Positions 2,915-18,672 of a DNA stretch of 32,000 nucleotides are shown piece after piece. The translations under genes and the position numbers were made by a program. Source of the stretch: Candidatus Saccharimonadota bacterium (GTDB taxonomy: Bacteria > Patescibacteriota > Saccharimonadia > Saccharimonadales > UBA4665); NCBI GenBank assembly GCA_016700375.1, contig CP065016.1, positions 300,001 through 332,000 of the forward strand, read 5' to 3'. The notes beneath the pieces were generated by a model. The model saw only the letters and a program-made list of their open reading frames with translations, was not told the origin of the DNA and did not search any database. Position 1 is the stretch's first letter; every line of letters starts with the position of its first letter.

Positions 2915-3053
2915 AAGGGGTTTTATGTACAATACATGGTAACCGTTTGAGGGCGAATGAAAACTGATTTGCAAGAAGTCACTTATCACCCGTCCTTAAG
3001 TATTAAGCGCAAAAATTTAGCTTACATAGTAAAGGACTGGACGTACATTACAC

Positions 3054-3098
3054 AATATATTCCGGGGTAGTCCGTCAGCTGACGGACGGGTGGCTGTA
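3054..3098 (+). repeat. Partial duplicate of the tRNA 5' half, with the D-arm replaced by the palindrome TCCGTCAGCTGACGGA
   Basis: AATATATTCCGGGGTAG (3054-3070) is identical to 3342-3358. CGGGTGGCTGTA (3087-3098) is identical to 3372-3383. The 13 nt CTCAGCGGTAGAG of the real D-arm are replaced by the 16-nt perfect palindrome at 3071-3086. Confidence 0.85.
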
Positions 3099-3109
3099 TA
3101 ATAAACTTC

Positions 3110-3358
3110 ATGCTTGAAGTTTATGTGCTTTACAATGCAGTTGCTAATAAGATATATATTGGTCAAACTAATAATCTGAAAGTGAGACTCGCTTCACATA
3201 ATAATAAAAGGGGCAACCACTTTACAGCGAAGTTTGAGGGTGATTGGGAGCTGATTTATTCTGAATCAGTCGCCACTCGCTCTGAAGCACTTCAGCGCGA
3301 AAGACAATTAAAATCGTCAAGGGGACGAGCGTTCGTTAAAAAATATATTCCGGGGTAG
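3110..3358 (+). CDS. Small stand-alone GIY-YIG nuclease domain protein (82 aa)
   Basis: The sequence MLEVYVLYN..NKIYIGQTNNLKVRLASHN...RSEALQRERQLK carries the GIY (VYVLY) and YIG (IYIGQT) motifs plus the conserved Arg and Glu of the GIY-YIG fold. Its stop codon TAG (3356-3358) lies inside the first 10 nt of the tRNA. Confidence 0.85.
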   Translation: MLEVYVLYNAVANKIYIGQTNNLKVRLASHNNKRGNHFTAKFEGDWELIYSESVATRSEALQRERQLKSSRGRAFVKKYIPG

Positions 3359-3679
3359 CTCAGCGGTAGAGCGGGTGGCTGTAAGTCGCCTTGAAGAGTT
3401 ACTTCATAAATAAATGCAGCCTACTTGGGCAATCAAGTAGTGAACATCGGGTGAATTGACGGGAAGCCTACATCGAAAGACAAGGTAATCCGCAGCCAAG
3501 CCTTGCTTAGGTTAAAAGAGCAGGGAAGGTTCAGAGACTAGAGAGTGAGCCTAACAATAATCTCTCGTAAGCGCCCGACAACCGTTATGCGACGGTTGAT
3601 AAGATAGTCCGCCCTTGCACGAAAGTACAAGATAAGCATAACCACTAGGTCGCTGGTTCGAATCCAGTCCCCGGAGCCA
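3349..3679 (+). tRNA. Intron-containing tRNA, body most like tRNA-Asn(GUU); CCA encoded
   Basis: Exon parts by hand: TCCGGGG TA GCTC AGCGGTA GAGC G GGTGG CTGT | intron | TAA CCACT AGGTC GCTGG TTCGAAT CCAGT CCCCGGA G CCA. All four stems pair. U1-A72, G73 and the overall sequence closely resemble bacterial tRNA-Asn as I remember it from E. coli and B. subtilis. The exact splice junction, and hence the anticodon, is not fully resolved (see findings). Confidence 0.8.
3383..3638 (+). ncRNA. Group I intron (~256 nt, no ORF) in the anticodon loop
   Basis: The four classical conserved elements are present in order. P: GAATTGACGGGAAGCC (~3453-3468). Q: AATCCGCAGCCAAGCC (~3487-3502). R: GTTCAGAGACTAGA (~3529-3542). 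S: AAGATAGTCCG (~3601-3611). A P9-like hairpin with a GAAA tetraloop lies at 3614-3631. The candidate P1 pairs exon GGCTGT with GCAGCC (3415-3420), with a U.G pair at the splice site. Confidence 0.85.
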
Positions 3680-3715
3680 AGAAAAGACGAGTCGTTTGGG
3701 CTCGTTTTTTCTTGG
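3677..3715. terminator. Bidirectional-looking rho-independent terminator after the tRNA
   Basis: CCAAGAAAAGACGAG (3677-3691) pairs with CTCGTTTTTTCTTGG (3701-3715) with one G.U position. T-runs are present on both strands. Confidence 0.6.
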
Positions 3716-3719
3716 CTCA

Positions 3720-3923
3720 GAGATTGGTTTGAAACTGCGACCAGCGAGCAAAGCGAGTGAGGTCGCTGGTTCGGTGAAGCGAAGCCACGCGCAGTCCATC
3801 TACTGACGGACGAGCATGGTTGAGGGGAGGAGTACAAAGTCCGCCATCCAGTCCTCGGCCCCAAAAACCAATCCCAGACGAACCCACCAGAGGGAACCAT
3901 ACCATCCCGGGTGAAATCACATT
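3720..3923 (-). ncRNA. Unclassified conserved non-coding element, copy A (candidate structured RNA; strand tentative)
   Basis: It aligns along its full length with 10133-10340. The end blocks are near-identical (GAGAYTGGTTTGAAAC ... CCAAAAACCAATCCCAGAYGAACCCACCAGAG ... TACCATCCCGGGTGAAATCACATT) and the centre is diverged. The conserved blocks fall in different reading frames in the two copies. A long-range helix GATTGGTTT (3722-3730) / AAACCAATC (3865-3873) and an internal TCCATC-TACT-GACGGA hairpin are present. Confidence 0.45.
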
Positions 3924-4013
3924 GTAGGCCCGATTATACAGTCAATTGTAAAATCGGCCTTATTACATCTCTTTAGGGTTAGACCTTGCTTCACCCTGCT
4001 TCACATTAAATCT

Positions 4014-5022
4014 GGCTAACTGAAAGATTTTAGGGTACTCTTTCACCGTTTTTCTGTCATGCTGATTGCATGAAAAAAGATGTTCTCATTGTCATAGCAT
4101 ACGGATTAATCATGTAGGGATGCAGTCTGGGCGTCCACGGTACCTTTGTCGGGATTGCCGCAAGAAGTTTCAAGATAAACGCAGACAGATACGTTCATCG
4201 GTTGCCTTCATGCATTGGGATAGCTATGTCTGGGGAAAGCAAACAGTCGAGCAGCTGGCCAAAGAGCTTCGTGTCAGTGTTCCGGCCATGCGAGCGAAGC
4301 TTGACGCCTACAACATCCCACAGACGCTCCCGTACCAGGAATTACTACCCACCTCAACTACACTCGCTATCGACGCCTACTTCCGTTCACGCGGTGACGG
4401 TACCCTTATCTTCCGCTCACCTGAGCTACGACGTAATCTTCTCTGGTACGATATTCGGTACGAAACTGTCGAGGAGTATCTACGAGGTATCCGTTTGATG
4501 CAAGAAGCGGGTTGGGTATTCACTGGCTTTGTGGTTGATGGTCGTAAAGGCGTTGTCAAAGCTCTTTCTAGCCTTGCTCCGGTGCAGTACTGCCAGTTCC
4601 ATCAGAAGAAGACTATTCGGAACTATCTGACAAAGCATCCCAAAACAGATGCCGCTAGAAAGCTCAAAGACATCGTCGATCTTTTGACGCTGACCGACGA
4701 AGCCTCGTTCCGGGCATGGCTTGGAGTGTGGCATCATACATGGGACACATTCCTGAAAGAGAAAACGATTCACCCCGATGGGAGTACCAGCTACACTCAC
4801 AGAAGACTTAGAGCAGCTTACCGCAGCCTCAAGACAAATCTACCGAATTTGTTTACCTGCCACACGGTCGATAACCCACCAAACACGACGAATACGTTAG
4901 ATGGTAGTATTAGTCATCTCAGAACAATGCACCGAGTCCATAGAGGCATAAAATTACGACGACGCCGTAAAGTAACAGATACGCTCCTTCGAGGAAAGTA
5001 CCCTAAAAAGTTTCAATGAGCC
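4014..5022 (+). mobile_element. Insertion sequence (~1.0 kb, single ORF; IS1/IS1595-like by architecture)
   Basis: The imperfect terminal IRs are GGCTAACTGAAAGATTTTAGGGTACT (4014-) and the reverse complement of AGTACCCTAAAAAGTTTCAATGAGCC (-5022), sharing a 12-nt perfect core TTTTAGGGTACT. A direct repeat TTAAATC(Y) lies immediately outside both ends (4006-4013 and 5023-5030). Confidence 0.8.
4066..5019 (+). CDS. Transposase with N-terminal InsA-like zinc ribbon and DDE-type core
   Basis: The N-terminal C-x2-C ... RYLCRDCRKKFQ resembles the IS1 InsA / IS1595 zinc finger. VVDGRKGVVKAL...YCQFHQKKTIRNYL resembles the D-x-G...C-x2-H block of Mutator/IS256-type cores. The start is TTG and the stop lies inside the right IR. 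Family assignment is tentative. Confidence 0.7.
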   Translation: MHEKRCSHCHSIRINHVGMQSGRPRYLCRDCRKKFQDKRRQIRSSVAFMHWDSYVWGKQTVEQLAKELRVSVPAMRAKLDAYNIPQTLPYQELLPTSTTLAIDAYFRSRGDGTLIFRSPELRRNLLWYDIRYETVEEYLRGIRLMQEAGWVFTGFVVDGRKGVVKALSSLAPVQYCQFHQKKTIRNYLTKHPKTDAARKLKDIVDLLTLTDEASFRAWLGVWHHTWDTFLKEKTIHPDGSTSYTHRRLRAAYRSLKTNLPNLFTCHTVDNPPNTTNTLDGSISHLRTMHRVHRGIKLRRRRKVTDTLLRGKYPKKFQ

Positions 5023-5262
5023 TTAAATCCTCAAAAATACGAAACCACCCGTCGATACTGACGAAATAATCACAACTATCTTACCCGTGATCAATAGCAA
5101 TAACTGAGAAAAAAATTGTGAGTGGATACTTTGTGATATTCTCATACAAAAAGTGAACAACGTACTTAAAAGCACCAGCTAATGCAATGCTTTAATCGTT
5201 CGTGCAATAGCAACATAAGTATAATGTTTGGTGAGTGGCGGCACGGCCGCTATAATTAGACT

Positions 5263-6303
5263 GTGAGCAATACTACATACACTACTATTGATCTGTTTGC
5301 GGGGATAGGCGGTATCCGCAAAGGGTTCGAAGCAACTGGCAGATTTAGGACAATTTATGCCAATGATTTTGATAAGCACTGCAAGTTGACCTATGACGCC
5401 AATTTCAAAAACACACCCCTTACTGTCAAAGACATTCACGAAGTCGGACTAGTTAAGGACGGCGTTGAGTCGTTTGATTTTCTATTAGGCGGGTTTCCAT
5501 GCCAGGCATTTTCTGTTGCAGGCCACAAGCAGGGGCTTGACGATCACAAGGGACGAGGTATTCTCTTCGAAGAAATCGAACGCTTACTTAAAGAGGCAGC
5601 CGACACGCAGACCATACCTCCTCAGGGTTTCATGTTAGAAAATGTTAAGAATCTCCTTAATCATGACAATAAACGAACCTACCCTATTATTAAGCAAAGG
5701 CTCGAAGCGCTTGGTTATCACCTGGATGAAAGAGTTTACAACAGTCTAGATTTTGGTGTGCCACAAAACCGTGAAAGGGTGTACATTGTGGGCTTTCGTT
5801 CGCCTGAAGTCATGGCAGCATTCAAATGGCCTGAGATACCTGGTCGCGGTAATCTGCAAGTACAAGATTTGCTGGATTCAGAAGTTGACCCCGTTCATTA
5901 CTATGAGGGTAAGCCGCTTTATGATCGCATCAAGGATTATGTTACTTCTGACTCAACCGTTTATCAGTACCGCAGGAATTATGTACGCGAGAATGCCAAA
6001 GGAGTATCACCAACACTAATGGCGAATATGGGCATGGGTGGCCATAACGTGCCAATCATAAAAGATGCGTATGGCATACGTCGGCTCACTCCTTCTGAAT
6101 GCGGTCGTTTGCAGGGATACAATAATTTAGTAATACCTGCCGGGCTTTCATATCATCAAATCTATCGACAGATCGGCAACTCAGTTACCGTACCAGTGAT
6201 TAACGCTGTAGCTGAGGCAATGCTACAGGCACTCGATTCTGTAAAGAATAAAAAAATGTCTATACCCGAGATCACTAAGAGAGAGCTAGTATCCATTAAA
6301 TAA
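5263..6303 (+). CDS. DNA (cytosine-5) methyltransferase
   Basis: All canonical C5-MTase motifs are present: I IDLFAGIGG, IV GGFPCQAFS, VI ENVKNL, VIII QNRERVYIVG, X GNSVTVPV. The start is GTG, directly after a TATAAT-like box (5251-5256). Confidence 0.92.
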   Translation: MSNTTYTTIDLFAGIGGIRKGFEATGRFRTIYANDFDKHCKLTYDANFKNTPLTVKDIHEVGLVKDGVESFDFLLGGFPCQAFSVAGHKQGLDDHKGRGILFEEIERLLKEAADTQTIPPQGFMLENVKNLLNHDNKRTYPIIKQRLEALGYHLDERVYNSLDFGVPQNRERVYIVGFRSPEVMAAFKWPEIPGRGNLQVQDLLDSEVDPVHYYEGKPLYDRIKDYVTSDSTVYQYRRNYVRENAKGVSPTLMANMGMGGHNVPIIKDAYGIRRLTPSECGRLQGYNNLVIPAGLSYHQIYRQIGNSVTVPVINAVAEAMLQALDSVKNKKMSIPEITKRELVSIK

Positions 6304-6346
6304 TTATTTTCTTGACTACATTTCCGCTATATAGTAGCCTGGAATT

Positions 6347-6568
6347 ATGCAGGAAGATAAGCATGGCAAATTTAAGCGACTCGCAAAGCAGCGCGGAGAA
6401 CGTATACTAAAAGACTTACAATTATTGGGCAACTTATCCAACACGAATAATTACACCTACACTGAAGCGGACGTCAAAAAAATATTTGCCACCCTTGAAC
6501 AAGAGCTTAGGTTTTCTCGTTCACGTTTTCAAAAAACCATAAGCCGAAATAGGGGGATCGATATATGA
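6347..6568 (+). CDS. Small basic, probably helical protein (73 aa), no recognisable domain; first gene of a translationally coupled four-gene unit
   Basis: The ORF begins with ATG. Its stop overlaps the next start (ATGA at 6565-6568). I recognise no motif. Confidence 0.55.
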   Translation: MQEDKHGKFKRLAKQRGERILKDLQLLGNLSNTNNYTYTEADVKKIFATLEQELRFSRSRFQKTISRNRGIDI

Positions 6569-8454
6569 GCAGTGATCTTGGCTGGCGTTTCCCAGCACTG
6601 GACGATTCAGAGCGTGAAGGTATCAATGACTCCATTACTAAGGCATTTGCAGGTGATCACGAGCACTTTATAGCTCGTGAGTGTATACAGAATTCGATTG
6701 ACCACCGCCTGGATAAGACAGCCCCAGTCCGGGTAGAGTTTAGACTTAAAAGTTATCCTCGGTCAGTTTTCCCGGCTATAGACGAACTTGCCGATATAGT
6801 TGACTGTTGCATCAACGCGTCCAGCAGTTCTCGTGCAAAAGAGGAGCTGGCGGTTATTAAAAAGTCCGTATCCAGTCAGCAGATACGAACACTTACTGTA
6901 CGAGATTACAACACGGAGGGTCTAACTGGCGGAGATTATGATGAGGCCGGAAGCTGGCATAGGCTTGTGCGTGCCGTGGGTTCTAACGATCCATCGGGTG
7001 TAGGCGGTGGCTCTTACGGTCTTGGCAAGGGTGCTCCATTCGCAGCGTCAGGTATTCGTACTGTTTTTTATGCCACGTATAACGAAAAGAGTGAGAATGT
7101 TTTTCAGGGCAAAACACGACTAGTCAGCCATATGGGCTCAGATGGCAAGATGAAGCGAGGCGTAGGATTCTACGGTGCAAGATCAAATGACGCATGCCGA
7201 TCTATTCGTACAAAAGCAGAAATGCCTGCTGAATTCGTGAGGGGCGAACGCGGTACGGACATCATAATACCTGCCTATCGAGCAGTGTCAGACAACTGGC
7301 AGCTAGGTCTGGTGCATTCTGTTCTCAAGAATTTTTGGCCAGCAATACACGAACGCATGCTGGAAGTTGAAATTTACGACGGTAACGACTTAAAGCAAAA
7401 CATTAACGCCGAGAACCTAGCCGCTCTTCTTGAACAATATCCAGGCGAAGAAACGGGCAACGCCTACTATTACTTCTTGGCAAAGACCAGTCCTGATAAG
7501 GACGGCTATTTCAGCGAGCCAATCGATGGACTCGGCGAAGTCGAACTGTATATTAAGCGGGGTGATGATTATCCGAAAAAAGTTCAGCAAATGCGTGCGC
7601 CACTGATGGTGGTTTCTTCCGAACCTTACCGCCGTGCGTTACTTGATCCTTTTGCGGCAGTACTTATTTGCAGAGACGAAGAAGGCAACAATTTTCTCAA
7701 AGGGCTTGAGCCACCACAACATGATACATGGGATCCAACACTTGGCGACGATACCGACGTTATTAGAAATAATAAACGTATATATAAATCGCTGCAGGAT
7801 TGGGTACGAAGCAAACTAAAAAGTCTCTCGCGTGCTTCCGACGGAGAAGTCATGGAAATACCAGGATTGGCAGAATACTTAGCCAGCATGGAGCGTGATG
7901 ACCTTGCACTATTTGGCCGAGTGGACAAATCTGATGATGATCCAGATTCTGAGACTGATGTAGAGCGCATTATTCCCGTCAATTCTGCTGTATCGGCTCG
8001 TCGACCTCTACAGTACAGCCTCAATGCAGTTAAAGCTGATACTGGTCCTGATGAGGGCGGTAGTGGTGGTAGTGGTGGCGGTAGTGGCCGAGGGGGTGGA
8101 GGCCAGCCAAACCCGGGCGGAAGATCGCGTAGATTACAGAACCGTTCAACCATCCGCGTTAGGAATATCGGCATGACCCCCTCCGGCGAGTTTACAGATG
8201 TTGAGCTATGTCTTTACTCGAAGCAACCCTTCGAGGGCACGATCAGATTAGTCGCTGCGGGGGAAGATATGAATACGGGTATACGCGTACTACACGCTAA
8301 TGCGGATAGTAGCGGCGCGGCTTATCCTATCAAAAGCGGTCGCATACAAAACGTAAAGATTGATCCGTCTCGTCCTACAAGAATAACTGCTCGCATGGAC
8401 GGTAAGAATATTAGATACGCAATAGGAGTTGAGAGCCATAAAAACAATTCTTAG
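6565..8454 (+). CDS. GHKL-superfamily (Bergerat fold; HATPase_c_3 / MORC / sacsin-like) ATPase with Gly-rich linker and C-terminal beta-rich domain
   Basis: N box: FIARECIQNSIDH. G1-like box: VRDYNTEGLTGG. G2 box: GGGSYGLGKGAPF. After ~330 further residues comes an acidic stretch, then GGSGGSGGGSGRGGGGQPNPGG (nt ~8056-8120), then a ~110-aa beta-looking tail. No histidine-kinase H-box and no nuclease motif were recognised. Confidence 0.7.
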   Translation: MSSDLGWRFPALDDSEREGINDSITKAFAGDHEHFIARECIQNSIDHRLDKTAPVRVEFRLKSYPRSVFPAIDELADIVDCCINASSSSRAKEELAVIKKSVSSQQIRTLTVRDYNTEGLTGGDYDEAGSWHRLVRAVGSNDPSGVGGGSYGLGKGAPFAASGIRTVFYATYNEKSENVFQGKTRLVSHMGSDGKMKRGVGFYGARSNDACRSIRTKAEMPAEFVRGERGTDIIIPAYRAVSDNWQLGLVHSVLKNFWPAIHERMLEVEIYDGNDLKQNINAENLAALLEQYPGEETGNAYYYFLAKTSPDKDGYFSEPIDGLGEVELYIKRGDDYPKKVQQMRAPLMVVSSEPYRRALLDPFAAVLICRDEEGNNFLKGLEPPQHDTWDPTLGDDTDVIRNNKRIYKSLQDWVRSKLKSLSRASDGEVMEIPGLAEYLASMERDDLALFGRVDKSDDDPDSETDVERIIPVNSAVSARRPLQYSLNAVKADTGPDEGGSGGSGGGSGRGGGGQPNPGGRSRRLQNRSTIRVRNIGMTPSGEFTDVELCLYSKQPFEGTIRLVAAGEDMNTGIRVLHANADSSGAAYPIKSGRIQNVKIDPSRPTRITARMDGKNIRYAIGVESHKNNS

Positions 8455-9259
8455 AACCTATTCGCATCCAGTTCTTGGCAACGGAGATGATTTCAGTAAC
8501 CCATTCGATGTTGCATATGGCATTGAGGTATCCGAAGACAAGAGCGACTGGGTTATTGGGCTAAAGGTAGCAATGGATAATGAACAACTACAGAAGCTCG
8601 TTAGCACAGGATTAGCTGCATACCACCTTGAAGTTGAGTGCGGAAACACCTTCTACCGGTACTCGTTTGATACAAACCAGCAGACGGCACAGTTCACTAT
8701 TCCTACAACCCGGTTACGTGGCAAAGTTAAGCTCGATACGTTCATTGTTGCGCTTCAGCCTATTCAGGAATACAAGCCGACTGACGCACATGAGGACTAT
8801 GGGAGCCGTGCGTACAAAATTTCAACAGGAGATATTCTCGGAGTCGGAGGATCCCAGACATTTATTGCCGATACAGAGTTTGACCCTCTTCGTGCCTCAG
8901 CTAGTTCATTTATTAAAATCGAGCGAGGACCAAAAGCTAAAGGAAACATTATTGCCGAACATGGCTCCAGTGAAATAATCATACGACTGCCCCAGGAAGA
9001 CTATGATCGCTTTCAAGAAGTGGCAGGCCAAAAGCTGGTTGAAGATATTCTGCACGCGGCGATTGTATTTCCCGTTCTTGTTGAAGCCGTACAGTTCGCC
9101 CAGAACAAGAGAGGCAACGATTATAATGATCGTTTGCTCGCAATTCTTGAGCAGAGGGGGTTAATGAAAGAAGAAGCATTTGTGGCCGCACAGGAAATTT
9201 TACAGGCCCCGGTTTCCAGAGCTTTATCTAAGCTGCAACAGATAAGGGAGGCTGAGTAA
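8429..9259 (+). CDS. Hypothetical protein (276 aa), no recognisable domain
   Basis: It is a long ORF on the operon strand. The only canonical start in frame is TTG 8429, which overlaps the upstream gene by 26 nt, so the start is uncertain. Its stop overlaps the next start (TAATG at 9257-9261). Confidence 0.6.
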   Translation: MRAIKTILRTYSHPVLGNGDDFSNPFDVAYGIEVSEDKSDWVIGLKVAMDNEQLQKLVSTGLAAYHLEVECGNTFYRYSFDTNQQTAQFTIPTTRLRGKVKLDTFIVALQPIQEYKPTDAHEDYGSRAYKISTGDILGVGGSQTFIADTEFDPLRASASSFIKIERGPKAKGNIIAEHGSSEIIIRLPQEDYDRFQEVAGQKLVEDILHAAIVFPVLVEAVQFAQNKRGNDYNDRLLAILEQRGLMKEEAFVAAQEILQAPVSRALSKLQQIREAE

Positions 9260-10020
9260 TGAAGCTATTCAAATCATCATACTGTGCGGAACTTGCCGAA
9301 GCGGTGCGTCTTGGTAGCGGTCTTGAAGCATATGACAGCAGACAGTTTGAACCAGAGTCGGAGAAGTGCATTGATGGACCTGCCATAAAAACGAATGGCG
9401 ATGCACCCGTACTTGGGGGCAATAGTAATGACGCCTCAGCCGCTATTGCTGTATATGGCTATTTAGGTGAACTAAACGAACTGCAAGCTTCTGACAAACG
9501 GCTGTGGACCACACTTACTCACACCACATTTCGAGGGTACGTTATTGACAGATGGCCAGCCAAATCTGACGACGTAGAGGCAAAGAAAAACGCTGTAATG
9601 AGGCGCTGGTTTGCCGAGGGTGGCAGTGATCGTACGCTAGAAAATAACGCTATCGCCCGGCTTTGGTGGGGTGCTCGCCTTACATTTTCTCCATGGAAAG
9701 TAAATCCTGATGAGTTCGGCCACCTTGAACATGAAGATGACTTCTACTTTACTAAAAAGCTCTTTTCTTTACAGGAACTCATTAAAGTAACGATGGAGAG
9801 CAGTCTCGGACGATCAAGCAAGGTATTGATTGCCCTGCTAGCTTACCTGGACAAACATCCCGAACTAGTTAATAACGAAGACGTAGGCGACCTAATGAAA
9901 GAGCTTAACCTCATATCAGGTGCTAATAAAATTCTAGTTCTGAATGCAAAGGAGCTCGAGTCGTTAATCGAGGAAGCTGCCGACTCTTTATTTGAAGCGC
10001 GTACTTCTACTTACGCGTAG
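9259..10020 (+). CDS. Hypothetical protein (253 aa), Trp-rich helical, no recognisable domain
   Basis: The ATG start is coupled to the upstream stop. There is a conserved-looking central block, LWTTLTHTTFRGYVIDRW...MRRWFAEGG...NNAIARLWWGARL. The gene is followed by a terminator. Confidence 0.6.
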   Translation: MKLFKSSYCAELAEAVRLGSGLEAYDSRQFEPESEKCIDGPAIKTNGDAPVLGGNSNDASAAIAVYGYLGELNELQASDKRLWTTLTHTTFRGYVIDRWPAKSDDVEAKKNAVMRRWFAEGGSDRTLENNAIARLWWGARLTFSPWKVNPDEFGHLEHEDDFYFTKKLFSLQELIKVTMESSLGRSSKVLIALLAYLDKHPELVNNEDVGDLMKELNLISGANKILVLNAKELESLIEEAADSLFEARTSTYA

Positions 10021-10090
10021 GATCGGGTCAAATAACCACCAAATCGGCTTTAATTGCAGTTATAACATTCTCTATTGTTGTGAGCCATAT

Positions 10091-10123
10091 AAAAAGAGTC
10101 GGGCTGAAAGTCTGGCTCTTTTT
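10091..10123 (+). terminator. Rho-independent terminator of the cassette
   Basis: AAAAAGAGTCGGGC-TGAAA-GTCTGGCTCTTTTT. Three G.U pairs make the stem stronger on the + strand. Confidence 0.6.
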
Positions 10124-10132
10124 ATTTATCCC

Positions 10133-10340
10133 GAGACTGGTTTGAAACAGTGACAGAAATTTTGCCAGATGCGAAAGATCTTAGTTGCTGGCTCGGTGAA
10201 GCGAGGGCACACACAGTCCGTCGGTTGACGCACGAGCATGGGAAGGCGGAAGAGCACAGCGGCCCAGTCCCTGGGAGCCAAAAACCAATCCCAGATGAAC
10301 CCACCAGAGTAAAACGTACCATCCCGGGTGAAATCACATT
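10133..10340 (-). ncRNA. Unclassified conserved non-coding element, copy B (paralogue of 3720-3923)
   Basis: The alignment is as described for copy A. On the minus strand a promoter-like CTTACA (10367-10372) - 17 nt - GATAAT (10344-10349) sits just upstream of the conserved block. The long-range helix has a U.G pair only when read on the minus strand; it is a C.A mismatch on the plus strand. Confidence 0.45.
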
Positions 10341-10428
10341 TATATTATCTGTACGAAGTCGAGTCCTGTAAGCCGTTGTAGCTGCATACCGCTAGCGTTG
10401 TTAAGGTAATTTTTGTTACAGTGTAGTT

Positions 10429-12364: not shown

Positions 12365-12498
12365 CCCTTAGGTGCCCCAAACGGTACCTTTGGCTCCTTG
12401 TCGCCAAAATATATCCCAGACGAAAACTCCAGATGAGTTTTCCTCACCCCAAGTGAAATACTCGGCAATAAATATGAAACCTGAGTCACGAAACTTTT

Positions 12499-12790
12499 GT
12501 CCTTGTCATTCTGAGTGAAGTCGAGGAATCTCCTTGTCCTACTTGTAGCTATACGGTGAAAGGAAGATCTTTCGACCTGACCCACGTGCACTTTTTGGGT
12601 GTCATCTTGAGCGAAGTCGAAAGATCTCATCGTATTTACATCTAACGGGATCCCTCCACGGAGTTTACCCCGTACTTGATACGGGGGTCGGGATGACAAT
12701 GGAATAAAAAGTGCACATGGGTCAGTCTTTCGACTTCGCTTTGTTTCACTCAAAGCCTGCCCTCGACCCGATCGGGGGATGACATTGTAT
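12499..12790. repeat. Nest of short palindromic / inverted repeat units (GTCATYYTGAGYGAAGTCGARRAWCTC family and GGGATGAC-ended hairpins)
   Basis: Units lie at 12505-12533 and 12601-12629 (forward) and 12726-12760 (reverse, with an insertion). GGGATGAC-type ends lie at 12690-12697 and 12775-12783. A CCCCGTA/TACGGGG hairpin lies at 12668-12686. The 213-aa antisense ORF over this region is an artefact of the repeats. Confidence 0.75.
12577..12725. mobile_element. MITE-like element (149 bp) with 20-bp terminal inverted repeats and 9-bp target duplication
   Basis: TIR-L is CTGACCCACGTGCACTTTTT (12577-12596). TIR-R is AAAAAGTGCACATGGGTCAG (12706-12725). They are 19/20 complementary. An identical TCTTTCGAC lies directly outside both ends (12568-12576 and 12726-12734). 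Confidence 0.7.
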
Positions 12791-12861
12791 GATGTTTTTT
12801 TGTTTCGTGATTCAGCTATATGAACCGCTAGGTGACACTGCATTATATTCACGCTCTATAG

Positions 12862-16226: not shown

Positions 16227-17454
16227 CTAGCGTTTTGTATATAGTGTCTTCAACAACTGGTCTTTTGCTTTGTTCATGGCTATCGCCCAAGCTGTATCAC
16301 TTTCAGCATACGCCACTTCGTCTAGTTTCTCAAAACTGCTGCCTGTCTTCAGGTATTGTTTGGCGTCTGGCAATGACTTCAGCTTCTCGTACGGTACCAT
16401 GTACCCATTGACTGGGTAGCGATGTGTCCTCTTGCCCGTCTTTGAGTCAACGCTCGTTATGCGGTAACCGCAGGGTCGGTGGAAGTTCAGGTAGGGCACA
16501 AACCACGTACAGTACCAGCTGTTAATATCCGGAGCATATTCCCTGGGTATATGCGCATAGCCTAGGGCTTTTCGGATAATGCTACCATTCTTGGTTTCAA
16601 CCAATCCATTGTCTCCGCTTTGGTAGGCTCGAGACTTACTGAGCTTGATGAGCATTGCTTTCAGGAGGGCAGCAACTTGTTTGTTGATGTACTCCGAGCC
16701 ATTGTCGGCGTGGAATTCTACAATGACAAATGGGAACAGCACCAAAGCTGCTTCGAGGGCTGGCAGCATGTAACGCTCAGTGATTCTCTCGACCGCGACC
16801 ACCACCTCCCACTGGGTAACTTCATCAACCAGATTGATGTGGTACACACCCTTTTCTTTGTCCTTATCTCCCTGGTGGACAGTATCTATACGGATGAAGC
16901 CAGGTTGACCGTTCGGGCGTGGTTTGCGGCGCTCGCCAATAGCTATTGTTGTTGCTTGCGTTTTGGTGAACGTATGGCTTTGGTTACGGTATGTTACGGT
17001 GCCACGTAGATTGTATATGTGGCTGACGGAGATTGCGCTAAGTCGTTCGTAGCGTGCATCGCCAAATGTCACAAAGGCTCGTTGGGCTAGAACTTTTGCC
17101 GCTTTGCCACTGAGCCGATCATGGGCATCATCCAGCTCTGCTAGCAGCCCAATGTCTTCACGCGTGTAGCGCAGTGCAAACTGGTTTCTCATGTTCACTG
17201 GCTCCAGCGCAATACAGCCAGTCCGCAGGTACTGTCCAATAAGCCGAGTCACCTGGGCACGGCTGTACCCCGTGACGGCTATGGCGTATTCTCGAACGAC
17301 GCCTTTGTCTTTTTTGCCCAAGTGCTGGTAGTCAAGACGAACGACCAGTTGCTGTAACCAGGCATAAGCCTCTTGCTTATGTACGATTGTAAGGTCAAGT
17401 GACTGAGTGCCTGAGACAAACTGTCTGAGTTCTTCAATAGTTGGTAGCGTGTGT
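16227..17454 (-). pseudogene. DDE (rve, integrase-core) transposase gene, separated from its first four codons by the IS3 insertion
   Basis: The rve core is DTVHQGD...VDEVTQW...FHADNGSEY...SGDNGLVETKNG. The frame stays open upstream of the tracked TTG as far as the IS3 boundary. Removing 17455-18678 joins it in frame to ATG CAG CAA CAC (18686-18675), which is preceded by GGGAGG, giving a 411-codon ORF. Confidence 0.8.
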
Positions 17455-17791: not shown

Positions 17792-18672
17792 CTGCCCTGG
17801 ACGAGGTCGACCCAGGGTGGCGCAAGCAATACAGCAAGCTCCTGGGCCTTGGCCGGACAAGCTACTATGTTCGTCCAGCGAAACAAGCAGAAACCGACCG
17901 ACAGGCTATTGCGCGGCTACAGGCAGCCCACGAACTCCACCCATTCTACGGCGTCGACCGGTTAGCACTGCACCTTGGCTGGAACAAAAAGAAAACCAGA
18001 CGTATCCGTACGCTTGCGGGTGTTATCATACCGACACCAACTAAGAAGCGTCGGAGCGGTTGGTCTGCAGCAGCAGAGATTAGCGCACCGCCTAACGCTC
18101 TACAGTGCTACGCTCGTCTTAAAGACGAGCTGCGGCCACAGGACGGTCAAAGCTATGCCGACATGGTCAATGCTCATGCGTGGGCGCAGGACTTTACATA
18201 CCTGTGGTTCGAGAAGCGCTGGCACTATCTGGCGGTGGTGCTCGACCTGAAAACCAGGCAAGTGGTTGGTTGGCGGCTCGGTACACGACATACCAGCGAG
18301 CTGACCCACGAGGCACTACTCGATGCACTCAGCAAGCATCCAGCGCCAGCAATCCTCCACTCTGATCAAGGTTCTGAATACTTGAGCTACAGGCACCAAG
18401 ACCTCTGCAACAAAATGGAAATCCAACTTAGTGCGAGCACCAAAGCCAGCCCCTGGCAGAATGGTTTCATGGAGCGATGGTTTGGTGGCTTCAAGCGCGA
18501 AGTCTGCAACCTGACACAATACAAAAACTTAGCGGCACTCCACGAAGCCATTGCCCTGCACATCTACTATTACAACCATAAGCGTATCCACAGCGCATTA
18601 AAGATGAGCCCGGCAGCTTACGCTGCCAGTCTCAACAAGAGAGACAGGGTGTTCGCTAAAAGGGGAGGTTGA
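17779..18672 (+). CDS. IS3 OrfB (rve/DDE), reached by programmed -1 frameshift from OrfA
   Basis: The -1 frame is open from 17779 with no start codon until 18163. The slippery heptamer C CCA AAA lies at 17779-17785, just before the orfA stop. The DDE core is DFTYLWF...LHSDQGSEY...WQNGFMERWF. Confidence 0.85.
   Translation, partial: PKRLAALDEVDPGWRKQYSKLLGLGRTSYYVRPAKQAETDRQAIARLQAAHELHPFYGVDRLALHLGWNKKKTRRIRTLAGVIIPTPTKKRRSGWSAAAEISAPPNALQCYARLKDELRPQDGQSYADMVNAHAWAQDFTYLWFEKRWHYLAVVLDLKTRQVVGWRLGTRHTSELTHEALLDALSKHPAPAILHSDQGSEYLSYRHQDLCNKMEIQLSASTKASPWQNGFMERWFGGFKREVCNLTQYKNLAALHEAIALHIYYYNHKRIHSALKMSPAAYAASLNKRDRVFAKRGG

What the first reader, a model, noticed from the sequence alone, without database searches (positions are those of the whole stretch)
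3720..3923. Pair of diverged ~205-nt non-coding elements with RNA-like compensatory changes (copies at 3720-3923 and 10133-10340)
Directly seen: the two regions align end to end. The terminal blocks are near-identical and the centre is substantially diverged and carries indels. Conserved nucleotide blocks (CATGCTCGT, GGACTG, TCGCTTCACCGARCCAGC on the minus strand) fall in different reading frames in the two copies, so the conservation is not protein-coding. The 67- and 71-aa minus-strand ORFs share only their first ~20 residues. Structure signals are as follows. A 9-11 bp long-range helix (GATTGGTTT with AAACCAATC) encloses ~135 nt. In copy B the single change gives U.G on the minus strand but C.A on the plus strand. 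The internal hairpin in copy A (TCCATC-TACT-GACGGA) is likewise fully paired only as minus-strand RNA (G.U). The stem ACCAGCGA/TCGCTGGT in A is replaced by GCCAG/CTGGC in B. On the minus strand, copy B has CTTACA-17-GATAAT just upstream of the conserved block and copy A has TATAAT. Both copies run into a hairpin/T-run terminator. I cannot match them to tmRNA, 6S, SRP, RNase P or any riboswitch by eye.
Basis: partly seen in the sequence, partly recalled or inferred. Interest (0 to 1): 0.7.

Follow-up and report, generated by a model that had tools for sequence, protein, structure and literature searches.

The report
tRNA-derived repeats bracketing a defence island
The two ~205-nt look-alike stretches are real and non-coding, but they are best read as mosaic repeats built from pieces of the neighbouring tRNA gene that mark where foreign gene blocks are swapped in and out of a Saccharibacteria genome, not as a proven new structured RNA.

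Summary
The repeat is real: 3718-3923 and 10131-10340 align end to end at 79% identity, and a shorter third copy lies at 12404-12462. Rfam has nothing on either strand, and the ORFs across the copies are not conserved. The proposed helices can form, but 9 variants from related Ca. Saccharimonadales contigs show no covariation beyond sequence conservation (92.9% of cells paired against 92.8% in shuffles). The closing helix carries uncompensated mismatches in several variants. The helices are largely explained by what the element is made of. Its plus strand carries the adjacent tRNA's 3' half, split in the T-loop by an unrelated, type-specific 51-72-nt insert, plus an inverted copy at the left end. 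The two copies bracket a 6.2-kb block (an IS256-like IS, a Dcm methylase and candidate defence system PDC-M33). That block is missing in a related strain, where copy A joins copy B's flank directly. The block's right edge is a tRNA-like GAGCCA junction, and a viral contig carries only the last ~41 nt of this tRNA. A minus-strand promoter (CTTACA-17-GATAAT) is conserved, so transcription is plausible. In other strains it leads into a CdiA_C toxin gene. Verdict: island-boundary repeats at a tRNA integration hot spot. A functional RNA is not excluded.

The parts
3349..3679 (+). tRNA gene interrupted by a group I intron (Rfam match 3395-3631). Exon 2 starts at about 3639 (TAACCACT...). The 3' half supplies blocks T1 (3647-3660) and T2 (3661-3679).
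   Evidence: Rfam RF00028, 103.8 bits. Exon sequences read. The orthologous intron-less gene in L016 is called tRNA-Asn(GTT) by ARAGORN.
3680..3717 (.). A-type bidirectional terminator hairpin and T-run directly after the tRNA. It travels with the element as one unit.
   Evidence: Sequence. The same terminator follows GAGCCA in L007, L029, L016, L035 and L042.
3718..3759 (.). Copy A, left part: a diverged inverted copy of the tRNA T-arm and acceptor 3' strand, plus a spacer. It supplies one strand of both reader helices.
   Evidence: clear in B: 22/27 matches, 0/300 shuffles; weak in A. Pair analysis.
3760..3773 (+). Copy A, block T1: AGGTCGCTGGTTCG, 14/14 identical to tRNA positions 42-56, in the same orientation as the tRNA.
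   Evidence: z=6.0, 0/300 shuffles.
3774..3845 (.). Copy A, insert X (72 nt), sitting where the T-loop would be. Homologous only to X of copy B (72%) and unrelated to X of types D and E (43-57%).
3846..3863 (+). Copy A, block T2: ATCCAGTCCTCGGCCCCA, matching the tRNA T-stem 3' strand, acceptor 3' strand and CCA (83%).
3864..3923 (-). Copy A, 60-nt 'module' (AAAACCAATCCCAGACGAACCCACC...GGGTGAAATCACATT). This is the best-conserved block of the family and the first ~60 nt of the putative minus-strand transcript.
   Evidence: nhmmer E=1e-18; 80-93% between types.
3924..4013 (.). Flank unique to the window's copy A; homology with related strains stops at 3923. Contains TGTATAAT (3933-3940, minus strand).
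4014..5022 (+). IS256-family (Zn-binding variant) insertion sequence with 26-nt inverted repeats.
   Evidence: Inverted repeats; NF048019 at 261 bits.
5025..10081 (+). Accessory block: Dcm-type C5 methylase (5263-6303), a 73-aa ORF, and PDC-M33 A/B/C (6565-8454, 8429-9259, 9259-10020).
   Evidence: Pfam; PADLOC. The same block occurs at 98% identity in L042/L043 in another context.
10082..10087 (+). GAGCCA, identical to the last 6 nt of the tRNA. Homology of the accessory block with L042/L043 ends exactly here, so this is the island's right junction.
   Evidence: window 5025-10087 = L042 2977-8043; different sequence follows in each. The same GAGCCA junction occurs in L012, L013, L026 and L009.
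10088..10130 (.). B-type bidirectional terminator.
   Evidence: plus-strand terminator 10101-10118 plus T-run. The same unit follows the true tRNA in L013.
10131..10340 (-). Copy B: inverted tRNA-like left part 10131-10182, T1 10183-10195, X 10196-10262, T2 10263-10280, module 10281-10340.
10344..10372 (-). Minus-strand promoter-like site CTTACA-17-GATAAT, immediately upstream of copy B in minus-strand sense. It is part of a ~35-nt conserved flank.
   Evidence: Conservation of the hexamers against the spacer across 7 flank variants.
12404..12462 (-). Copy C: a short, diverged module only, preceded by ...GTCGCCA and running into the terminator of the 518-aa gene.
   Evidence: nhmmer E=1.3e-12. 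The orthologous copy is at L016 4974-5032.

Best explanation
The element is a mosaic, tRNA-derived repeat unit of about 250 bp. Its order is: tRNA-like GAGCCA end, bidirectional terminator, inverted tRNA-3'-half copy, T1, variable insert X, T2, 60-nt module, outward-facing promoter. It belongs to the region just downstream of a tRNA gene that is an integration and recombination hot spot in this Saccharimonadales lineage. When a circular or incoming DNA segment carrying one version of the unit recombines with the resident version, the accessory genes end up bracketed by two direct copies. That recombination could be site-specific at the GAGCCA / T-loop-like junctions or homologous across the conserved blocks. 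In the window, resident and incoming alleles A and B flank the IS + Dcm + PDC-M33 block. Recombination between the copies removes the block again and gives hybrid elements. 'Conserved ends, diverged centre' therefore reflects block-wise mosaicism. T1, T2 and the module are kept, or repeatedly re-copied from the tRNA, while X and the left part are swapped. It does not reflect an RNA with a variable domain. The helices are by-products of inverted tRNA-like repeats. Shown: the tRNA-derived composition, the bracketing, the empty site, the junction positions and the mosaic variants. Inferred: the direction and mechanism of recombination. The minus-strand promoter is probably functional. At empty sites it would give a ~240-nt non-coding read-out that stops at the terminator, and at sites holding a minus-strand cassette it drives that cassette (a CdiA_C toxin gene in related strains).
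For: (1) T1 and T2 match the adjacent tRNA's 3' half in direct orientation with z=3.8-6.0 and 0-1/300 shuffles. The split falls at the same T-loop position in four types, and the left end is an inverted copy. (2) Block-wise identity between types: T1 71-93%, T2 68-89%, module 80-93%, X 43-57%. X sequences occur nowhere else. (3) Empty site: L029 matches the window to 3923, then continues with copy B's flank (to 10374) and the 518-aa gene. (4) Mosaics: L013 has a B-type terminator and left part with an A-type centre and right part. L007, L004 and L029 have an A-type body with the B-type flank. (5) Bracketing recurs elsewhere: D...CdiA_C...E in L016, L035 and L037; B...129-aa ORF...E in L012; short modules between HNH, 272-aa and 104-aa genes in L016-L024. 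(6) The defence block's right end is exactly GAGCCA in two strains with different elements after it. A large serine recombinase island starts exactly after the tRNA's GAGCCA in L026, L027 and L009. (7) A viral contig holds only the last ~41 nt of this tRNA with no 5' half, which looks like an att fragment. (8) No covariation. (9) Only 3 copies in 32 kb, all within the 9-kb variable zone next to the tRNA.
Against: No integrase lies in or next to the window's island, only an IS256-like transposase. Standard integrase models predict a contiguous tRNA 3' copy at attR and do not explain the insert X between T1 and T2. Breakpoints fall at several positions (GAGCCA|, CACATT|, |CCCAGAC, the X borders), so no single crossover core is defined. 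The conserved minus-strand promoter, the unit boundaries at promoter and terminator, and the excess of G.U over A.C pairs on the minus strand (36 against 8 cells) are what a real RNA gene would also show. T1, T2 and the module are better conserved than a decaying scar should be.
Confidence: 0.55

Rival explanations
1. A genuine structured small RNA family (about 210-240 nt), transcribed from the minus strand from the CTTACA-17-GATAAT promoter to the bidirectional terminator. It would have a conserved 5' domain and a variable central domain, with paralogues that happen to sit at island borders or are used as integration targets.
For: The promoter hexamers and 17-nt spacing are conserved while the spacer diverges. 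Conservation runs from the promoter to the terminator. The helices form in every long variant (92.9% of cells paired against 35-48% for slid registers). There is one compensatory A-U to G-C pair, and six changes give G.U on the minus strand only. No ORF is conserved.
Against: There is no covariation above shuffles. The closing helix has uncompensated mismatches in 5 of 9 variants and is absent in type E. The D-type copy has lost the -10 box (GGGAAG) and the L013 copy has another flank with no promoter. Copy C keeps the primary-sequence motifs but has a different hairpin. Folding z-scores are unremarkable. The helices are explained by inverted tRNA-derived repeats. The sample is narrow, so power is low.
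Confidence: 0.2
2. A promoter-plus-leader module for minus-strand cassette genes. The conserved first ~60 nt would be a 5'-UTR regulatory element, and the long terminator-ended forms in the window would be orphan leaders left after loss of the downstream gene.
For: In E-type copies (L014, L035-L040) the same promoter and module run, with no terminator, about 250 nt into a CdiA_C-domain ORF on the minus strand. In L016 and L001 the module is followed by other sequence leading towards the same gene. The module is the best-conserved block.
Against: No regulator or ligand is identified. Rfam finds no cis-regulatory family. The module hairpin is not conserved in structure. The window's A, B and C copies precede no minus-strand gene. 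The module also always follows a tRNA-like ...GCCA end, which a leader does not need.
Confidence: 0.12
3. A functional tRNA mimic or anti-tRNA RNA. The minus-strand transcript carries two arms antisense to the tRNA's T-arm and acceptor 3' strand, separated by a variable linker, plus a sense-like T-arm near its 3' end. It would act on the tRNA, on a tRNA-cleaving toxin (as decoy or antitoxin), or in guiding recombination at the tRNA gene.
For: T1 and T2 are conserved far better than X and stay close to the tRNA sequence (79-100%). The toxin gene bracketed by E and D copies has a CdiA_C domain (E=2e-15). Its nearest solved relative, on a weak match (E=0.11), is the Bp1026b CdiA-CT, a tRNA-cleaving PD-(D/E)XK toxin (PMC9086364). 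No protein immunity gene is called next to it.
Against: This is entirely circumstantial. The toxin is not in this window. The PDB match is weak. Conservation of T1 and T2 can come from gene conversion with the nearby tRNA or from repeated att duplication. B-type T2 resembles the other tRNA allele (GCCCAG...), which favours repeated copying from the tRNA.
Confidence: 0.06
4. A small protein gene on the minus strand (67 and 71 aa), or a plus-strand regulatory region for the downstream genes.
For: ORFs span both copies. Each module lies 70-90 nt upstream of a plus-strand ORF.
Against: The ORFs share only about 20 residues, are 18-25 aa in L001 and L004 and 22 aa in type D, and type E lacks the ATG. 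There are no Pfam hits. Only one called protein exists among 5.8 billion clusters. The downstream plus-strand genes are unrelated to each other, and their own promoter-like sequences lie closer to their starts.
Confidence: 0.04

Closest known systems
Genomic islands and prophages integrated at tRNA genes, bounded by direct repeats of the tRNA 3' end (attL/attR); sublocation classes described by Williams 2002, Nucleic Acids Res (cited from my own knowledge)
   Same: The repeats contain the tRNA 3' half in the same orientation as the gene. They lie downstream of an intact tRNA and bracket accessory genes that are absent in relatives. A GAGCCA junction recurs, and a viral contig carries just the tRNA's 3' ~41 nt.
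   Different: The repeat is ~250 bp and only 79% identical. The tRNA copy is split in the T-loop by a variable 51-72-nt insert. There is an additional inverted tRNA-like copy. No integrase accompanies the window's island, and breakpoints fall at several positions.
Integron gene cassettes with attC sites and a Pc promoter
   Same: Co-oriented repeats with conserved ends, a variable centre and internal inverted repeats separate single accessory genes. A promoter at one side can drive an adjacent cassette.
   Different: There is no IntI integrase and no R''/R' GTTRRRY boxes. Cassettes occur in both orientations and reach 6 kb. The repeats are tRNA-derived.
Small RNA and tmRNA genes used as integration targets (such as ssrA islands)
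   Same: A non-coding transcription unit with a tRNA-like 3' portion is duplicated at island borders.
   Different: No evidence that the unit is a functional RNA, no Rfam family and no covariation.
Orphan toxin/immunity cassettes downstream of CDI or Rhs loci, exchanged by recombination at short shared segments
   Same: A CdiA_C-domain toxin gene sits between repeated homologous segments in a highly variable array.
   Different: There is no full-length cdiA or rhs gene, and the shared segments are non-coding and tRNA-derived.
MITEs / REP-type intergenic repeats
   Same: Short, non-coding, multi-copy, with inverted repeats that fold.
   Different: No terminal inverted repeats or target-site duplications. 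Copies are confined to one 9-kb zone. A true MITE with both features lies next to copy C, for contrast.

Membership tests
Any Rfam 15 family (6S, tmRNA, SRP, RNase P, riboswitches, HEARO, IS605-orfB and others) | Covariance-model match at or near the gathering score | tested here: not met
   The only hit in the window is the group I intron. At E<=10 nothing overlaps the element bodies except chance miRNA or sRNA hits on the terminators.
Structured non-coding RNA (generic) | Base pairs maintained by compensatory substitutions above a null model | tested here: not met
   (covariation term +1.06; 1 of 40 pairs). (92.9% against 92.8% paired, 247/500; score reached by 70/500 shuffles). The power is low: 9 variants from one narrow clade.
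Structured non-coding RNA (generic) | Own promoter and terminator delimiting the conserved unit | tested here: met
   (hexamers conserved against the spacer, p=0.008). The terminators are shared with plus-strand genes. There are no expression data.
tRNA-gene att repeats of integrative elements | Direct repeat of the tRNA 3' segment downstream of an intact tRNA gene | tested here: met
   (T1 14/14, T2 16-18 of 17-19; 0-1/300 shuffles). The copy is, however, split by insert X.
tRNA-gene att repeats of integrative elements | Repeats bracket DNA that is absent from the same site in related genomes | tested here: met
   (L029 is the empty site). One search shows the same block elsewhere with the junction at GAGCCA.
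tRNA-gene att repeats of integrative elements | Integrase gene at the tRNA-proximal end of the bracketed DNA | tested here: not met
   only an IS256-like transposase. A large serine recombinase island occupies the same tRNA end in L026 and L027.
tRNA-gene att repeats of integrative elements | Excision and integration demonstrated (circular junction, restored empty site in one population) | not testable with these tools
   This needs read-level metagenome data or experiments.
Integron attC sites | IntI integrase nearby; R''(RYYYAAC)...R'(GTTRRRY) boxes; 57-141 bp | tested here: not met
   No tyrosine recombinase in the window. The sequences read lack GTTRRRY ends, and the length is ~205-250 bp.
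MITE | Terminal inverted repeats and target-site duplication | tested here: not met
   The element's ends (AGAAAAGACGAG... / ...GAAATCACATT) are not inverted repeats. Compare the true MITE at ~12479-12823.
Diversity-generating retroelement TR/VR pair | Reverse transcriptase nearby; differences confined to adenines of the template; no indels | tested here: not met
   No RT in the window. The copies differ by indels and by all substitution types.
Small protein / type I toxin gene | ORF conserved in frame and length | tested here: not met

The most novel reading that the evidence does not exclude
The unit is a transcribed, purpose-built tRNA-directed RNA. Two arms antisense to the T-arm and acceptor 3' strand of the neighbouring tRNA flank an exchangeable linker, and a tRNA-like T-arm follows. 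This RNA would work with the cassettes it borders. It could act as a decoy or antitoxin for an acceptor-stem tRNase (the CdiA_C gene bracketed by E and D copies has no called immunity gene), or as an RNA that targets recombination to the tRNA locus. That would be a previously undescribed RNA class in the CPR bacteria.
Probability: 0.07. Interest if true: 0.8.

Novelty: new variant of a known kind. Interest (0 to 1): 0.35.

Why it matters
Saccharibacteria have tiny genomes, and how they gain and lose defence and toxin genes is poorly described. This locus shows a compact, reusable docking zone next to a tRNA gene where a defence system, a toxin gene, an HNH gene and a recombinase island alternate between close relatives. 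Each is bounded by the same tRNA-derived unit with an outward promoter. If the unit is only a recombination substrate, it is a neat but unsurprising variation on tRNA-linked islands. If its conserved, split tRNA-complementary blocks are functional RNA, it would be a new type of tRNA-directed RNA in an understudied phylum.

Tried and rejected
- Rfam at gathering and permissive thresholds found nothing on the elements. ARAGORN found no tRNA or tmRNA in the window because the tRNA is intron-split.
- Single-sequence folding on both strands gave z-scores from -0.3 to -2.1, which is not informative.
- The genome-collection scan with the 20-nt core found only 3 loci, all Ca. Saccharimonadales. The JGI metagenome scan with a looser pattern gave only a chance hit on a simple repeat (L015). 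Viral scans for the module, the T2-module junction and the T1-X-T2 pattern found nothing.
- Using the spurious minus-strand ORFs as a protein handle found one protein only. Homologues of the 104-aa neighbour formed one cluster, which was still useful through its members.
- Small protein reading: rejected. DGR, integron attC, MITE and IS110 bridge RNA (no DEDD recombinase) readings: rejected on missing defining features. TIGR arrays (PMC12045711, seen) were considered, but these are not tandem short-unit arrays and no Tas/Nop protein is present.
- The remnant next to the tRNA fragment in L041 reads like a tyrosine-integrase C-terminus (..KKLETTKIYLH..). My Pfam test of it failed on a coordinate error in the same call, so this is my reading only.
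- Literature searches found no described ncRNA or island system of this kind in Saccharibacteria.

Full report
**Observation.** The right-hand ~70 nt are nearly identical, and the centre is diverged and carries indels. The conserved 32-nt and 24-nt blocks each occur exactly twice in the window, with none expected by chance. A direct-repeat search and a profile search add a third, shorter and more diverged copy at 12404-12462. No further copies exist in the 32 kb. Rfam release 15 gives nothing for the elements on either strand, even at E<=10. The minus-strand ORFs share only about their first 20 residues. In other variants they are 18-56 aa or lack a start codon. They have no Pfam match and essentially no called homologues among 5.8 billion protein clusters. 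So the elements are real, repeated and non-coding.

**Context.** The window comes from a closed 1.26-Mb Candidatus Saccharibacteria genome. All relatives found are Ca. Saccharimonadales MAGs or metagenome contigs.

- Copy A lies 38 nt downstream of a tRNA gene (3349-3679) that is split by a group I intron (Rfam 103.8 bits).
- Between copies A and B lie an IS256-family Zn-variant IS (4014-5022, 26-nt inverted repeats), a Dcm-type methylase and the three genes of the PADLOC candidate system PDC-M33.
- After copy B come a 104-aa membrane protein gene and a 518-aa gene, then copy C.

**Is it a structured RNA?** I collected nine distinct full-length variants (types A, B, a B/A mosaic, and D) and partial types (E, S2, S3, C).

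Column shuffles give 92.8% (247/500 reach it), and the covariation score is 0.090 against 0.086 (70/500).
- Pair by pair, the closing helix has a U.C mismatch in L004, L029 and L031 and an A.C mismatch in L007 and L013. It is absent in type E.
- Among roughly 13 independent changes inside helices, one is compensatory (A-U to G-C at the outer pair of the ACCAGCGA/TCGCTGGT hairpin), six give G.U on the minus strand, two or three favour the plus strand, and four break the pair.
- The strand asymmetry (92.9% against 84.6% paired; 11 against 5 pairs) is not significant (p=0.21).
- Single-sequence folding is unremarkable on both strands.

The sample is narrow, so this is absence of evidence with low power. 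Still, the specific claim of RNA-like compensatory change is not supported.

**What the element is made of.** Local alignment against the spliced tRNA, with shuffle controls, shows that the plus strand of every long variant carries the tRNA's 3' half in the same orientation as the gene. The copy is split into two blocks at the same T-loop position:

- T1, (T)AGGTCGCTGGTTCG, matching tRNA positions 42-56: 14/14 in A, z=6.0.
- T2, ATCCAGTCCC-CGGAGCCA, matching positions 57-75: 18/19 in E, z=5.6; 16/17 in B.
- The left end of the element is a diverged inverted copy of the same T-arm and acceptor segment: 22/27 in B with 0/300 shuffles, and weak in A.

Between T1 and T2 sits an insert X of 51-72 nt. 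X is homologous between A and B (72%) but unrelated between A/B, D and E (43-57%). By contrast, T1, T2 and the 60-nt module that follows T2 are 68-93% identical between types. X sequences occur nowhere else in the held data. The closing helix is the inverted T-loop/T2-like segment pairing with the start of the module. Both are consequences of inverted tRNA-derived repeats.

**The elements as boundaries.**

- L029 matches the window up to 3923 and then continues directly with copy B's right flank and the 518-aa gene. This is the empty site, and exactly the product of recombination between A and B.
- L007 and L004 likewise have an A-type body with the B-type flank. L013 has a B-type terminator and left part joined to an A-type centre and right part.
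- The Dcm + PDC-M33 block recurs at 98% identity in L042 and L043. Homology ends exactly at ...GTTGTGAGCCA (window 10087). There it is followed by an A-type terminator and another element variant instead of B.
- The same GAGCCA junction, at the true tRNA end, is followed in L026, L027 and L009 by an island carrying a large serine recombinase.
- A viral contig (L041) carries only the last ~41 nt of this tRNA with no 5' half. Next to it is what I read as a tyrosine-integrase C-terminal remnant (not tested).
- In L016-L025 and L035-L040, D- and E-type copies bracket a minus-strand CdiA_C-domain gene. Short modules separate HNH, 272-aa and 104-aa genes. L012 shows a B-type copy, a 129-aa minus-strand ORF, then an E-type copy.
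- Flanks change at several fixed points: GAGCCA|, CACATT| (three different right flanks), |CCCAGAC, and the borders of X.

**Transcription.** The ~35 nt beyond the module carry CTTACA-17-GATAAT on the minus strand. Across seven flank variants the hexamers show 4 changes in 84 positions, against 21 in 119 for the spacer (Fisher p=0.008, with the caveat that the sequences are related). Spacing is always 17. In type E this promoter and module lead, with no terminator, into the CdiA_C ORF. In types A, B and C they lead to a bidirectional terminator. Type D has lost the -10 box, and L013 has another flank. So a minus-strand transcript is likely but not shown. At empty sites it would be a ~240-nt non-coding RNA.

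**Explanation.** I think the most likely reading (about 0.55) is that the unit is the tRNA-proximal docking and boundary sequence of a recombination hot spot. Accessory blocks carrying one version of the unit recombine with the resident version and end up bracketed by two diverged direct copies. Recombination between the copies deletes or swaps blocks and creates the observed mosaics. The outward promoter expresses minus-strand cargo. Three things remain unexplained: the insert X splitting the tRNA copy at one fixed position, the high conservation of T1, T2 and the module, and the missing integrase in the window's island. The rivals are a real sRNA (0.2), a leader element (0.12), and a functional tRNA-directed RNA (0.06). 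The last is suggested only by the split antisense arms and by the neighbouring toxin's weak similarity to the tRNA-cleaving Bp1026b CdiA-CT.

**Comparison and novelty.** The closest known kind is tRNA-linked genomic islands bounded by repeats of the tRNA 3' end. Membership is met for the repeat's origin, the bracketing and the empty site. It is not met for an accompanying integrase, and it is untestable here for excision. Integron attC, MITE, DGR, small-protein and Rfam memberships all fail tested features. I rate it a new variant of a known kind, with interest 0.35. It is a tidy picture of cassette turnover in a CPR genome with one odd feature (the split tRNA copy), but it is not the novel structured RNA that was proposed.

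Noticed in passing
window 3349-3679 (intron about 3383-3638; Rfam match 3395-3631): The tRNA gene is interrupted in the anticodon loop by a group I intron. The orthologous gene in L016 is intron-less and is called tRNA-Asn(GTT). In the window the exon junction is ambiguous. Alignment to L016 implies anticodon GTT with an intron ending in A, whereas the usual U / omega-G splice rule would give anticodon CAT.
   Followed up: partly
window 3042-3358: An 82-aa GIY-YIG nuclease ORF (3110-3358) ends inside the tRNA's 5' end. It is flanked by a 29-nt direct repeat (3042-3070 / 3330-3358) that duplicates the tRNA's first 10 nt plus upstream sequence. L016 lacks both this gene and the intron (window 2935-3638 has no counterpart), so the free-standing homing-type nuclease and the intron are present or absent together.
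   Followed up: partly
window about 12479-12823: A ~345-nt insertion relative to L016, with 14-nt terminal inverted repeats (12481-12494 / 12802-12815), internal palindromes and a duplicated TATGAA. It looks like a MITE landed 15 nt from copy C, displacing whatever lay upstream of C on the minus strand.
   Followed up: partly
window 4014-5022: A compact (~1 kb) IS256-family Zn-binding-variant IS whose transposase ORF ends inside the right inverted repeat. It replaces the left part of the defence island that L042 still has (DUF4352 and HTH genes).
   Followed up: partly
window 5263-10020: A Dcm-type C5 methylase is tightly linked to PDC-M33 A/B/C (C is a DUF6339 protein). The same five-gene block is 98% identical in L042/L043 and about 85% identical in L044/L045 in other contexts, which suggests a mobile methylase-associated defence module.
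   Followed up: partly
L026 4570-8249 (also L027, L009): In some strains the tRNA is followed directly by a different island (GyrI-like protein, large serine recombinase, DUF4352, HTH, ParB/methylase), and no copy of the element lies within 3.7 kb.
   Followed up: no
L041 (IMGVR_UViG_3300033074_000763), minus strand around 7078-7118: A viral contig carries exactly the tRNA's last ~41 nt and no 5' half. It sits beside a short ORF remnant ending ..KKLETTKIYLHAS.., which reads like a tyrosine-recombinase C-terminus. This is a candidate att fragment of a Saccharibacteria phage.
   Followed up: partly
L012 3720-3753, L016 2766-2850, L035 2250-2345: A second recurring pseudo-tRNA-like 3' end (..GTGACCA(G/C)(C/T)(G/A)TGGGGAGCCA) precedes terminators or modules in several loci. 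Its origin is unknown.
   Followed up: no
window 16227-17321 (-) and 18163-18672 (+): Two rve-domain (IS3/IS481-like) transposase ORFs, one apparently truncated. L014 and L029 show reduced synteny with the window around 12.9-18.8 kb, so this is a second variable patch.
   Followed up: no
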